A DNA stretch of 63,493 nt, counting the filler, from Reclinomonas americana ATCC 50394 (taxonomy: Eukaryota): the NCBI GenBank assembly GCA_048213135.1. It is 17 parts of 17 records of this genome, joined end to end, with 100 filler letters (N's around TTAATTAATTAA, not from the genome) between each part and the next. Parts side by side here need not be neighbours in the genome. Positions count along the whole stretch, not along the records: positions 21,109 to 29,369 come from AFZH01018185.1; 16 more parts are not named here. One strand, 5' to 3'. Within the stretch, counting starts at the first letter, position 1, and each line of letters opens with the position of its first letter. Below the pieces are notes generated by a model. The model made no database searches, was not told the DNA's origin, and saw nothing but the letters and a program-made list of their open reading frames with translations. A program made the translations under genes and the position numbers. This document shows positions 24,901-27,664 of this stretch, in pieces.

Positions 24901-27664
24901 CATACGCCAAGCACACATTCACCTCCCGCAAATCCGCTCCCCTCCACACCGTCCTGTGCATCACCGCATCCCTCAAGTCCGCACCTCTCACTCGCACACC
25001 CGACAGATCTCGTCCACTGAACGACACTTGTGCCACACATAACACTGTCGCTGCATTCGCCGCTGCCGTCACCAATCGCTCCTCATCCACCTCCCGCGAC
25101 ATCTCAATCACCTCCCACAGTCTCGCTTGCAACACAGGAGACCGCCGCACCACCTCGGCCATCTGCTCCACCAACGATGGTCGATCATTCAGCAGTCGCA
25201 CTGCCAGCACATGCTGCTGCATATCTTCTATCGTCAGTTTCCTCTCCTCATCCCACGTCTCCCACGCAAACACATGCCGTGACACACAATGCTCCAGCAA
25301 CGACAGATGCACGAATCCCCACTGCGTTGTCCCATACCGTCGCACAATAGGACAGCATACTCGAACATGTTGGTTCTTGTGACCGAGGAACTTGTCAAAA
25401 GGTCCACCGTCCACCCGTCGCTCGGTGAGTGGTGCACCACCGAAGTCGTCCTCCTCCTCCCCACCATCACCTGATCGACTCTCCATCACAGTCACACGCA
25501 CCACATTCCTCTCGTGCATCAATCGCGCCAGTCCCTCGCAGAATGCCAGACACGTCTCCTCGCTCGGCACACGATCCGCACCAAGACGTGTCTGCCTCTC
25601 CTGCTCTCTCACAATCCACTGTCGAATGAACCGGTCAAACACATCACACCGAGTCGGCCGCTGCACACCACTCGCCAGCAACTGCGGCAACACACGGGCC
25701 ACCACCGAAAGCATGAATGGATTCGACACCAGTGCATCCAGTCCATGCACAAACTTGAGTGCACGAATGTACTCCTCCGCAGTAATCCACCGCACTTCAA
25801 AATCATCATCGTCACCAGCCACTTGCACCAGCCGCTTGAAGTACTCCTCAATCTGCTCCTTGTTGAACGGTGCAATGTGTCGCTCCATCAGCTGCTGCGT
25901 ACACAACTGTCCTCGTGCATCCACCGGTGCGAAGTACTGCCGGTACTGTGTCACACCACCCAGTGCCGTCAGCGCGTAATCGCCTCGACAGGTGATAATC
26001 ACCTTCACATCGCGACACACATCCAGCTGATTCTTGACAAACAGATTCACACCACGGTACAACTCATCGTACCCGTCAAGCAACAACAGCAGCGGCTCCT
26101 CTTTCAATCGTCGCACATCCGACTCCAATCCCAACTCGGGCGACAGTCGCTCCAGTGCCCCCTCCAACAACCACTCATCGGCATTGCGCAGTGCACCAAG
26201 AGGCACACGCACGGGCACCCGTCGACTCTCTCTCGTCTGCCACTGTCGCCATGCTCGCTCAGCCAGAACCGACATGGTGGTGGTCTTGCCAGCACCACTG
26301 TTGCCAAACAGCACCAGCACACGTTGCGTGGCGTTGGTATCGGAGAGGAACGCATCCACATCCGTCAACAAATCCGCCATCTTGTCCCTCGACGAAACAT
26401 CACGCTCACGCGAGCACCAGAGAGGAACGTACATCTGCATGTTCTTGCGCACAGTATCATCTTCGTAATAATAGGCCATCTCACGCAGAGCCAGTCGATG
26501 CAACCGTTCTTCGAAGGTGCTGATGATGAAATCGACGGAGCGCGCCTCACGAATCCGCATCACCAAGCCGCTGATAACATCAGCAGGCATGTGCAGCATC
26601 GCCAACAAAGATAGTAACACACCGCCGTCGCCGATGTGGTCTTGTAATTTCGCCTCAGTCCATCCCAAGGGCGAGTGCACCAACTCGTTACGCACCTCTC
26701 TAAGTTGCTCCAGTGCCTTCCGTTCATCACCATCGTCAATAAGAAGCAGCTTGCAACCGTCGTTTAGAACAAGTCCACCAAACAGCATGATAGATACCAA
26801 TGATGTCACATCGAACGCGTTACACGATGGGTTGGAAGTGGCGTCGGCATCTAAGGCGGCCTTCCAGTCGAGCAAATGCCGCTGCTGAGGTGTAAACAAC
26901 TTGACTCGTCCGGGAGCGAGTGGTGCATACCGATCGTACCAAGCTTTGATAGTCGTTGGATGCCAGAACAACGGCGGGGTCCACATGTCTGGAGTCCACG
27001 CCCGCACATCAAAGTCGGGATGATCGCGGCTGAACTGTCCCAGAGCGCGTTGACACCGTAGACGCATCGCGTCGACGACCACCTCGAAAACCATGTTGAT
27101 GCGATTGATGTTGGTCATCCTGTACAGTGCGACGTGAGACGGGAACAAAGTACACGAACGGACCCTGACTGGCCAACCAACCGCTCTGATGCCAAGGAAC
27201 TGGATGGACTGAGCAACCTTACAAAGTTGAGTTATCCGCACGAAACACGTATGTCAAAATTGACATCACCTTGCAACTCCGCTAACAGCAGCAGCAGCGG
27301 TAGCGAGCGACATGGCGATTCGCACAACCAGTGGAGTTGTGGCTTTCATTCCCATTCCACGCAGTGACACACCACTCATTTCGTGAATGTCAAACTCCAG
27401 TGGCTTCTCCACTCCCACAATCTCCATCTTCCCATCTCCACTCTTCTCCCGCAGCAAGCGAGTGGCCTCACGCAGCAAGTCCGCGAGAGTGGACATGCCC
27501 GACATGCCCTCCACCACTACTGACAGCGATGAATCATGCGCCGCACTCACATGCACGGAAAACTGTCACACACAAGGTAGCAAGTGACAAGCGATGAGAG
27601 CGAGAAGGTAAAGTAGCGTGTGAATTAGACGCGTCCCCACTTGATCAATACAACTCACCGACAT
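21995..27664 (-). CDS. NLR-like STAND protein, ~1807 aa: ubiquitin-like, HEPN-like, NACHT, pentapeptide repeats, 21 WD40; exons 27664-27659, 27562-27270 and 27119-21995
   Basis: Walker A GNSGAGKTT; Walker B LLLLLDGYDEL; VIITCR; NPFMLSVV; pentapeptide run ADLRDA/ADLRE/ADFRGANV; RNELVH (R-x4-H); both introns are GT-AG and keep the frame. Confidence 0.9.

What the first reader, a model, noticed from the sequence alone, without database searches (positions are those of the whole stretch)
27270..27664. Hidden 5' exons add a ubiquitin-like domain to the NLR
Seen: a 6-nt coding exon ATGTCG|GTGAG, then ACAG|TTTTCC... exon 27562-27270, then AG|GT...TACAG|G joining in frame (Arg) to MTNINRIN. The ORF track misses this. 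The peptide MSFSVHVSAAHDSSLSVVVEGMSGMSTLADLLREATRLL...SLRGMGMKATTPLVVRI follows the beta-grasp pattern (two strands, T-hydrophobic-x-D-L helix, SL-x-x-x-G-hydrophobic-K terminal motif). Inference: a UBL linking the receptor to ubiquitin machinery, or a decoy or docking site for the array tails.
Basis: partly seen in the sequence, partly recalled or inferred. Interest (0 to 1): 0.7.

Follow-up and report, generated by a model that had tools for sequence, protein, structure and literature searches.

The report
Hidden 5' exons upstream of NLR
Two small upstream exons in front of a large NACHT-WD40 immune-receptor-like gene look real and transcribed in relatives, but neither their splicing onto the receptor nor a ubiquitin-like fold could be shown.

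Summary
Exon 2 (27562-27270, minus strand) looks coding. Its codon usage equals that of real genes in the window, and only 4 of 315 spurious ORFs reach its synonymous score. Its only relatives among 1.84 billion representatives are three ORFs from Reclinomonas americana ESTs. One begins MS-FSVHV, exactly the proposed mini-exon/exon-2 join. Another reads through a retained intron 1. Intron 1 and the coding status of exon 2 are therefore well supported, through paralogues.

The second junction (27270/27119) to the NACHT-pentapeptide-WD40 ORF is untested. No EST ORF covers it. Its donor GTGATG lacks the +5 G found in 5 of 5 homology-supported introns in the window. ATG 27118 sits in a start context typical of this genome. 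A separate ~100-aa gene is a serious rival.

The ubiquitin-like fold is not supported. There is no Pfam, PDB-sequence or Atlas match. Two AlphaFold models are low confidence (pLDDT 39 and 51). Fold searches list no beta-grasp protein. The strand/helix order in the better model is compatible, so the fold is not refuted.

The parts
27659..27664 (-). Coding part of exon 1 (ATG TCG = Met-Ser). The 5' end of the exon and the transcription start are unknown.
   Evidence: Sequence. The N-terminus MS-FSVHV of the EST ORF P0026 matches the join. P0028 carries ..NVG.. where the window reads ENVG across ATGTCG|GT in another frame.
27563..27658 (-). Intron 1, 96 nt, GTGAGT...GACAG, with a pyrimidine-rich 3' part.
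   Evidence: An in-frame TGA at 27568-27566 closes the exon-2 frame upstream. P0028 reads through a homologous intron whose implied length is 59 nt.
27270..27562 (-). Exon 2, 293 nt (97 codons + 2 nt). It encodes the FSVHV...VSGVA module. The first 20 residues are the best-conserved part.
   Evidence: coding statistics. (three R. americana EST ORFs at 63-90% identity).
27120..27269 (-). Putative intron 2, 150 nt, GTGATG...TGTACAG. If it is not spliced, the exon-2 frame stops at TGA 27268-27266.
   Evidence: Codon score of 27119-27253 in the exon-3 frame is -0.127, i.e. non-coding-like. The donor lacks +5 G (compare). No transcript evidence.
21995..27119 (-). Large exon: a 1707-codon ORF from ATG 27118 to the stop at 21997-21995. 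It encodes a NACHT-pentapeptide-WD40 protein.
26429..27091 (-). N-terminal helical region of the large exon (about aa 10-230). It is a possible HEPN-type domain with RNELVH at aa 143-148 (26692-26675).
   Evidence: Motif. Atlas feature hits to HEPN_DZIP3/HEPN_Swt1 clusters at 0.81/0.77/0.76, a lead only. No Pfam hit.
25832..26323 (-). NACHT NTPase domain (aa 266-429). Walker A GNSGAGKT is at aa 272-279 and Walker B LLLLLDGYDE is at aa 343-352.
   Evidence: Pfam PF05729, E 6.3e-8, 33.1 bits against a cut-off of 26.7. Motifs.
21998..25003 (-). Pentapeptide repeats (about aa 706-754) followed by WD40 beta-propellers to the C-terminus.
   Evidence: Pfam PF00805 and PF00400 (17 WD40 stretches).

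Best explanation
Exons 1 and 2 are a genuine, transcribed and spliced 5' coding module. It belongs to a small lineage-restricted family seen so far only in Reclinomonas americana (jakobid) ESTs. The module is a strongly conserved N-terminal beta-hairpin followed by a helix, and then a variable, Ala-rich tail.

In this gene it most likely forms an N-terminal extension of about 100 residues. It would be joined through a 150-nt phase-2 intron to a protein of the form (possible HEPN)-NACHT-pentapeptide-WD40, a STAND/NLR-type receptor. There it would act as an extra N-terminal adaptor or regulatory module.

Shown: the sequence features, the coding-like statistics, the expression and intron-1 splicing pattern in paralogues, and the NACHT/WD40 identity of the large ORF. 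Inferred: use of the second intron, and any function or fold of the module. A beta-grasp fold is possible (my estimate about 0.3) but undemonstrated.
For: - All the signals are present and in frame.
- Exon 2 has coding-like codon usage.
- The flanks are non-coding-like. The putative intron 2 scores -0.127 in frame, and the upstream ORFs score about 0 or below.
- There are three EST-derived relatives. P0026 starts MS-FSVHV (42/48 identical). P0025 starts MAT-FSVNV (43/68 identical, no gaps). P0028 reads through the intron (28/31 identical).
- Residues 1-20 are identical in 17-19 of 20 positions in each paralogue. This region lies upstream of the first in-exon ATG, so translation must start in an upstream exon.
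- Intron 2 has AG|GT, a YAG acceptor and a pyrimidine tract. Its length is within the local range of 64-624 nt.
- The gap from the exon-2 stop to ATG 27118 is only 148 nt. The three stop-to-ATG gaps worked out between tandem genes of this window (coordinates) are about 283-352 nt.
- The exon-2 3' end encodes an Ala/Ser-rich stretch that would suit a linker.
Against: - No transcript shows the 27270/27119 join. The phmmer search found nothing covering the last third of exon 2. A search with the first 150 residues of the large exon found no ORF of 82-263 aa.
- All three EST ORFs are short 'complete' ORFs of 72, 79 and 117 aa.
- The tail of P0026, a transcript with intron 1 removed, resembles the window's read-through of the exon-2/intron-2 boundary (27275-27240). 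The score is 33 against 21.9 +/- 3.4 in shuffles, p about 0.01. P0028 has a similar tail (p 0.005).
- The donor GTGATG has T at +5. All 5 homology-supported donors in the window, and intron 1, have G there.
- ATG 27118 directly follows the proposed acceptor. It has the pyrimidine-rich leader plus ATG ACC seen at starts of other genes here. The possible HEPN domain begins within about 10 residues of it, so the protein would be complete without the extension.
Confidence: 0.5

Rival explanations
1. Separate small gene. Exons 1-2 encode a stand-alone protein of about 100 residues (MS + 97 residues + Arg, stop TGA 27268-27266). It belongs to a small jakobid family and lies head-to-tail 148 nt upstream of an NLR gene that starts at ATG 27118. 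The apparent intron 2 would then be the 3' UTR, intergenic region and NLR leader.
For: - All three EST ORFs are short and 'complete'.
- The tails of P0026 and P0028 resemble the read-through of the exon-2/'intron 2' boundary.
- The donor lacks +5 G.
- ATG 27118 is in a typical start context with a CT-rich leader.
- The first Met lies exactly after the proposed acceptor.
Against: - 148 nt is less than half the three tandem-gene stop-to-ATG gaps worked out in this window, about 283-352 nt (coordinates).
- The stop codon overlaps an AG|GT donor. A YAG acceptor with a pyrimidine tract sits in a compatible frame.
- EST reads are single-pass, and at least one of them (P0028) is clearly unspliced. 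P0026 carries a frameshift relative to the window. Short 'complete' ORFs may therefore be artefacts.
Confidence: 0.33
2. One reading: the module is a true ubiquitin-like beta-grasp domain fused to the NLR, linking it to ubiquitin machinery or acting as a docking or decoy domain. This is a special case of the best explanation.
For: - The better AlphaFold model (83 residues plus P0025) gives the order strand 2-8, strand 12-18, helix 26-41, strand 48-52, strand 79-82. That is the beta-grasp order as I recall it.
- P0025 has a sub-threshold hit to the SIN1 Ras-binding domain (E 0.069, 13.6 bits against a cut-off of 27). I recall that domain as ubiquitin-fold.
- The alternating hydrophobic pattern of the two N-terminal strands is visible in the sequence.
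Against: - The window peptide has no Pfam family even at E <= 10.
- There is no usable Atlas hit.
- The PDB sequence search gives only 3 weak, unrelated hits with E 0.47-1.8.
- Foldseek gives 0 matches at E <= 0.001.
- The VIA-align best Z is 5.3, and none of the 50 rows is described as ubiquitin-like.
- The C-terminal third, which should hold the last strand, is absent or different in all 3 paralogue ORFs.
- There is no Gly-Gly end.
Confidence: 0.15
3. Transcribed leader without protein function. Exons 1-2 are 5' UTR exons carrying an upstream ORF, or a decaying remnant of a former domain. The functional protein starts at ATG 27118.
For: - The paralogue ORFs are heterogeneous after residue about 48-68, with apparent deletions and frame changes.
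- No known family matches.
Against: - The synonymous codon score is at the mean of real genes.
- Identity to P0025 is 63% over 68 residues without gaps, with 78% positives.
- If intron 2 is spliced as proposed, the upstream ATG reads straight into the NLR frame, so it would not be a separate uORF.
Confidence: 0.1

Closest known systems
NACHT-WD40 STAND proteins ('NWD'-type NLRs). Examples are the Mortierellomycotina and Mycoavidus NACHT-pentapeptide-WD40 proteins found. Fungal HET-E/NWD2-type receptors are recalled, not tested here.
   Same: NACHT NTPase with Walker A and B motifs, followed by pentapeptide repeats and several WD40 propellers. The best relatives are 23-34% identical over the NTPase region.
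   Different: The region N-terminal of the NACHT domain is not shared with those relatives (query coverage 39-72% of the first 700 residues). The exon-2 module has no relative outside the R. americana ESTs.
DZIP3/hRUL138-type HEPN domains fused to NACHT ATPases in animals (Table 1 of PMC3710099; passages read).
   Same: An N-terminal helical region has an Rx4H motif (RNELVH) directly upstream of a NACHT domain. The nearest Atlas clusters carry HEPN_DZIP3 or HEPN_Swt1.
   Different: There is no Pfam HEPN hit. The Atlas scores of 0.76-0.81 are below the level the tool calls more than a lead. The paper describes this family as mainly in the animal lineage, whereas this window's relatives point to a jakobid.
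Integral N-terminal ubiquitin-like domains of large multidomain proteins. Sacsin, with an N-terminal UBL and a C-terminal HEPN, is one example (PMC3710099; passage read).
   Same: The position is at the extreme N-terminus of a large multidomain protein that may also carry a HEPN domain. The size is about 80-100 residues. The low-confidence secondary-structure order is compatible.
   Different: No sequence, profile or structural match to any UBL was obtained. The fusion itself is unproven.
Short N-terminal amyloid signalling motifs of fungal NLRs (NWD2/HET-S type; recalled, not tested against those sequences).
   Same: The best-conserved part is a strand-turn-strand of about 20 residues at the extreme N-terminus of a NACHT-WD40 protein.
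   Different: No matching motif was found in the window. There is none in the 16 WD40-array tails and no second copy by tblastn. The gene may already have an effector-like domain (HEPN lead), and the composition is not obviously Gly/Asn/Gln-rich.

Membership tests
Ubiquitin-like beta-grasp domains | Significant match to a UBL/beta-grasp sequence profile | tested here: not met
   Pfam gives 0 families for the 97-aa and 82-aa peptides even at E <= 10. P0025 has only RBD_SIN1 at E 0.069, below the cut-off. The PDB sequence search gives 3 unrelated weak hits.
Ubiquitin-like beta-grasp domains | Secondary-structure order strand-strand-helix-strand-(strand)-strand (definition recalled) | tested here: inconclusive
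   The model (pLDDT 51.2) gives E2-8, E12-18, H26-41, E48-52, E79-82. The model (pLDDT 39.3) gives E, E, H and then a helix at 75-94.
Ubiquitin-like beta-grasp domains | Three-dimensional similarity of the model to solved beta-grasp structures | tested here: inconclusive
   Foldseek against PDB gives 0 matches at E <= 0.001, best E 0.37. VIA-align against 48,161 chains gives best Z 5.3, and none of the 50 rows is described as ubiquitin-like. The model confidence is too low to decide.
Ubiquitin-like beta-grasp domains | C-terminal Gly-Gly (needed only for conjugatable modifiers) | tested here: not met
   The module ends ...VVRIAMSLATAAAAVSGVA(R), with no Gly-Gly. This is not required for an integral UBL.
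NACHT / STAND NTPase (NLR in the broad sense) | NACHT profile match above the curated cut-off, with Walker A and Walker B motifs | tested here: met
   PF05729, E 6.3e-8, 33.1 bits against 26.7, aa 266-429. GNSGAGKT at aa 272-279 and LLLLLDGYDE at aa 343-352.
NACHT / STAND NTPase (NLR in the broad sense) | C-terminal repeat sensor domain | tested here: met
   17 WD40 stretches (E 3e-130) plus pentapeptide repeats.
HEPN (DZIP3-like) | Rx4-6H motif (the criterion used in Table 1 of PMC3710099) | tested here: met
   RNELVH at aa 143-148 of the large exon.
HEPN (DZIP3-like) | Profile match to a HEPN family | tested here: not met
   Pfam on aa 1-265 at E <= 10 gives only DUF4559 at E 0.15. The Atlas feature hits of 0.81/0.77/0.76 to HEPN clusters are a lead only.
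Spliceosomal GT-AG intron (intron 1, 27658-27563) | GT...AG boundaries with a local-type donor, and removal in transcripts | tested here: met
   The intron is GTGAGT...ACAG. The paralogue EST ORF starts MS-FSVHV across the join, and another retains the intron. The transcripts are from paralogues, not from this gene.
Spliceosomal GT-AG intron (putative intron 2, 27269-27120) | GT...AG boundaries with a local-type donor, and removal in transcripts | tested here: inconclusive
   AG|GTGATG...TACAG|G is present. The +5 base is T, against G in 5 of 5 homology-supported donors. No transcript data: no RNA holder was listed and no EST ORF crosses the junction.

The most novel reading that the evidence does not exclude
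The near-invariant strand-turn-strand of about 20 residues at the extreme N-terminus (17-19 of 20 residues identical in each of three expressed paralogues) is a self-templating or oligomerisation signalling motif. It would be shared by a family of jakobid STAND receptors and small partner proteins. That would be analogous to the amyloid motifs linking fungal NWD2-type NLRs to their effectors, and would place such signalling in Discoba. The milder novel reading is a UBL-HEPN-NACHT-WD40 receptor in a jakobid.
Probability: 0.07. Interest if true: 0.8.

Novelty: new variant of a known kind. Interest (0 to 1): 0.3.

Why it matters
NLR-type STAND receptors are defined largely by their N-terminal modules. 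Short 5' exons such as a 6-nt coding mini-exon are easily missed by ORF-based or automatic gene models.

If the join is real, a deep-branching protist (jakobid-like) has a NACHT-WD40 receptor with an unclassified N-terminal module placed in front of a possible HEPN RNase domain. That would widen the known architectures and taxonomic range of such receptors.

If the join is not real, the locus is a small lineage-specific gene next to an ordinary NACHT-WD40 gene, and the finding is mainly a gene-model note.

Tried and rejected
- **RNA evidence:** no RNA holder was listed for 26500-28200, so read laying could not be used.
- **Whole genome:** none is held for this window, so paralogue copies and what lies downstream of them could not be surveyed.
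- **Word-indexed protein searches:** the exon-2 peptide against longer proteins gave none at E <= 1 among 1274 candidates. The first 150 residues of the large exon against 82-263-aa proteins gave none among 36 candidates.
- **Metagenome scan** with the A1 patterns: 89 pattern matches, none confirmed by tblastn.
- **Second copy in the window:** none. The best other tblastn hit has E 0.51.
- **P0027** (2719 aa, E 2.5e-5, 7 stretches matching query residues 3-25): I read it as a repeat-driven chance match and dropped it from the alignments.
- **Atlas search** of exon 2: no usable hit.
- **Fold searches** on the pLDDT-51 model: no clear match and no ubiquitin-like row.
- **Similarity to the 16 WD40-array C-terminal tails:** shuffle p 0.13-0.98. 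I rejected the idea of a motif shared with the tails.
- **Earlier findings of this scan:** none by sequence or by genome.
- **Literature:** 'jakobid' + 'NACHT' gave 0 papers. 'NACHT' + 'ubiquitin-like domain' + 'STAND' + 'WD40' gave 4 papers, 3 listed, of which only PMC3710099 was opened, as passages. 'Reclinomonas americana' + 'nuclear genome' gave 76 papers; only the 15-row listing was seen and nothing was used.
- **Alternative splice pairs:** the donor GTGCGA at 27325 with the acceptors at 27218/27209/27200 would pull non-coding-like sequence into the ORF, so I judged them worse.
- **The perfect GTGAGT at 27550 inside exon 2:** rejected as a donor, because all three EST ORFs contain the residues downstream of it.
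Full report
**What the window is.** The 63,493-base window is not one locus. It is 17 contigs joined by artificial linkers of 44 N, TTAATTAATTAA and 44 N. The finding lies in the piece 21109-29369 (8,261 nt). No whole genome is held and no RNA run was listed.

**The observation.** On the minus strand:
- ATG TCG (27664-27659) is followed by GTGAGT.
- An acceptor ...gtgacag precedes TTTTCC at 27562.
- The frame then stays open to ...GCA AG at 27270, which is followed by GTGATG.
- An acceptor ...ctgtacag ends at 27120, so that AG + G27119 gives Arg directly before ATG ACC AAC ATC (MTNINRIN).

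Intron 1 would be 96 nt and intron 2 would be 150 nt. Without intron 1, the exon-2 frame is closed upstream by TGA 27568-27566. Without intron 2, it stops at TGA 27268-27266.

**The large ORF.** The ORF 27118-21998 has 1707 codons and encodes:
- a NACHT NTPase (PF05729, E 6.3e-8, above the cut-off, aa 266-429), with Walker A GNSGAGKT and Walker B LLLLLDGYDE;
- pentapeptide repeats;
- about three WD40 propellers.

Its best relatives are 23-34% identical NACHT-pentapeptide-WD40 proteins, mostly from Mortierellomycotina fungi, plus a Mycoavidus protein and a Euglena transcript. None of them shares the region N-terminal of the NACHT domain.

That N-terminal region (aa 1-265) has no Pfam or PDB-sequence match. 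It does contain RNELVH, an Rx4H motif, which is the HEPN criterion in Table 1 of PMC3710099 (passages read). Its nearest ESM-Atlas clusters carry HEPN_DZIP3 or HEPN_Swt1, with scores 0.81, 0.77 and 0.76, which the tool rates as a lead only. I treat a HEPN domain as a lead, not a result.

**Is exon 2 coding?**
- The full codon log-likelihood is +0.28 bits/codon in the proposed frame and -0.14 to -0.39 in the other five. 97-codon windows of the NLR ORF average +0.20 in frame and reach at most +0.11 off frame.
Exon 2 scores 0.151, the mean of 143 real windows is 0.151, and only 4 of 315 other ORFs of 80-160 codons reach it.
- The putative intron 2 read in the exon-3 frame scores -0.127. The ORFs upstream of exon 1 are near zero or negative, including a 380-codon plus-strand ORF of low-complexity translation.

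**Relatives.** phmmer against 1.84 billion representatives gave 4 hits. One (P0027) is a repeat protein matched through a short repeated motif, and I discarded it.

The other three are single-member clusters named by their source as EukProt Reclinomonas americana ORFs on EST-type ids. R. americana ESTs from cDNA libraries are listed in TBestDB as 17,644 ESTs in 6,797 clusters (PMC1899108; passages read).

- **P0026** (79 aa) begins MS-FSVHV and is 42/48 identical to exon 2.
- **P0025** (72 aa) begins MAT-FSVNV and is 43/68 identical, without gaps.
- **P0028** (117 aa) reads ...NVG...CRQ-FSVHV. Q is the CAG of the acceptor, as in the window. NVG matches the window's ENVG, which is ATGTCG|GT read in another frame. 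The implied intron is 59 nt against 96 nt here. Conserved exon edges with a length-variable intervening segment are what a real intron looks like.

Residues 1-20 are the best-conserved part, with 17-19 of 20 identical in each paralogue. They lie upstream of the first ATG inside exon 2, so translation has to begin in an upstream exon.

I therefore regard exon 1, intron 1 and exon 2 as real (about 0.8). The caveat is that the transcripts come from paralogues, or from another strain, and not from this copy.

**The join to the NLR.** Nothing tests it directly. No library ORF covers the last third of exon 2. None of 82-263 aa resembles the first 150 residues of the large exon.

Points for the join:
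- There is an AG|GT donor that overlaps the stop.
- There is a YAG acceptor with a pyrimidine tract.
- The intron length is within the local range. Five homology-supported introns or donors in the 6-phosphogluconate dehydrogenase and XRN genes of this window give lengths of 64, 68, 72 and 624 nt.
- Only 148 nt separate the exon-2 stop from ATG 27118. The three stop-to-ATG gaps I worked out between tandem genes of this window, from the coordinates, are about 283-352 nt.

Points against the join:
- The donor GTGATG has T at +5, whereas all five local donors (GTGAGA, GTGCGT, GTGGGT, GTTTGT, GTACGT) and intron 1 have G there.
- ATG 27118 follows the acceptor immediately. It has the CT-rich leader plus ATG ACC typical of other gene starts here.
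- Frame compatibility is cheap, since 3 of the 8 upstream AGs fit.
- P0026, although spliced at intron 1, changes frame near 27420. It then ends in a tail resembling the window's read-through of the exon-2/intron-2 boundary (27275-27240; p about 0.01). P0028 has a similar tail (p 0.005). P0028's tail against the window itself was not significant (p 0.12).

That last pattern suggests these paralogue transcripts keep the intron-2-like sequence. It could mean a separate small gene, lost donors in decayed copies, or incompletely spliced ESTs. I put the fusion at about 0.5 and a separate ~100-aa gene at about 0.33.

**The ubiquitin-like fold.**
- Pfam gives nothing for the window peptide even at E <= 10.
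- The one sub-threshold hit is P0025 to the SIN1 Ras-binding domain (E 0.069). It is what chance would give over four queries.
- The PDB sequence search gives three unrelated weak hits, and the Atlas gives none.
- AlphaFold with the four-sequence alignment gave pLDDT 39.3, with two strands, a helix, and a second helix over residues 75-94.
- With the trimmed 83-residue peptide plus P0025 it gave pLDDT 51.2 and pTM 0.35. The order was strand 2-8, strand 12-18, helix 26-41, strand 48-52, strand 79-82. That order is compatible with a beta-grasp as I recall it.
- The three-dimensional model found no significant Foldseek match (best E 0.37).
- In VIA-align the best Z was 5.3. The listed rows include ribosomal, phage and other unrelated chains, and none is described as ubiquitin-like.
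- The segment that should supply the last strands is missing or different in all three paralogue ORFs.

The fold is therefore neither shown nor refuted. My estimate is about 0.3.

The exon-2 peptide shows no similarity to the 16 conserved tails, and linkage is unknown.

**Verdict.** That is a useful gene-model correction and defines a small, so far jakobid-only, N-terminal module. The claims that make the finding exciting, a ubiquitin-like domain and its attachment to the receptor, remain open. The attachment is roughly even odds and the fold is less likely than not. Literature searches found no paper combining jakobids and NACHT.

Noticed in passing
whole window; linkers at e.g. 5965-6064, 21009-21108, 29370-29469: The window is 17 contigs (1,096-8,261 nt) concatenated with N44-TTAATTAATTAA-N44 linkers. 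Many contig ends are (GA)n/(CT)n repeats. Neighbourhood arguments across linkers are invalid.
   Followed up: yes
397-5894 (+), 10704-17360 (-), 37478-41185 (+), 43122-50111 (+): There are tandem arrays of stand-alone seven-blade WD40 genes of about 340-350 aa. Each starts MS/MT..TP.P and ends in a conserved acidic linker plus the tail ...RCLPEMVLRCFIVEEAEVVVHRSF.DPEMHL, or a second variant ending ...SLRL. Sixteen ORFs were listed. Their blades resemble the last propeller of the NLR.
   Followed up: partly
26429-27091 (-), motif at 26675-26692: The N-terminal region of the large NLR exon carries RNELVH (Rx4H). Its nearest Atlas clusters are HEPN_DZIP3/HEPN_Swt1 (0.76-0.81), but it has no Pfam hit. 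It may be a HEPN-NACHT-WD40 architecture outside animals.
   Followed up: partly
32589-33918 (-), intron 33113-33176: This is an XRN-type 5'-3' exoribonuclease gene (XRN_M, E 1e-31 and 3e-19 on adjacent ORFs). It is split by a 64-nt intron, GTACGT...TCGCAG. A further XRN_M fragment lies on the next contig (34372-35457).
   Followed up: partly
18700-20100 (+): This is a 6-phosphogluconate dehydrogenase gene with at least four introns: 72, 68 and 624 nt, plus a further donor. The 624-nt intron begins with a long G/A-rich low-complexity run.
   Followed up: partly
27545-27550 (-): A perfect GTGAGT lies in phase 0 inside exon 2 (codons Val-Ser). The EST ORFs contain the residues after it, so it is apparently not used as a donor.
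   Followed up: yes
27714-27716 (-): An upstream ATG lies 50 nt before ATGTCG, in another frame (the frame that reads ...ENVGELY*). It would form a short uORF if the transcript starts upstream of it.
   Followed up: no
27118-27565 (-): Exon 2 and the large exon are in the same genomic frame. Only two stop codons, 12 nt apart (27266-27268 and 27254-27256), interrupt one continuous frame from 27565 to 21998. The intervening 45 codons score as non-coding.
   Followed up: partly
9116-10837 (-): This 573-codon ORF has TPR_10/TPR_12 repeats (E 2e-10, 1e-9). It may be part of another STAND-type gene.
   Followed up: no
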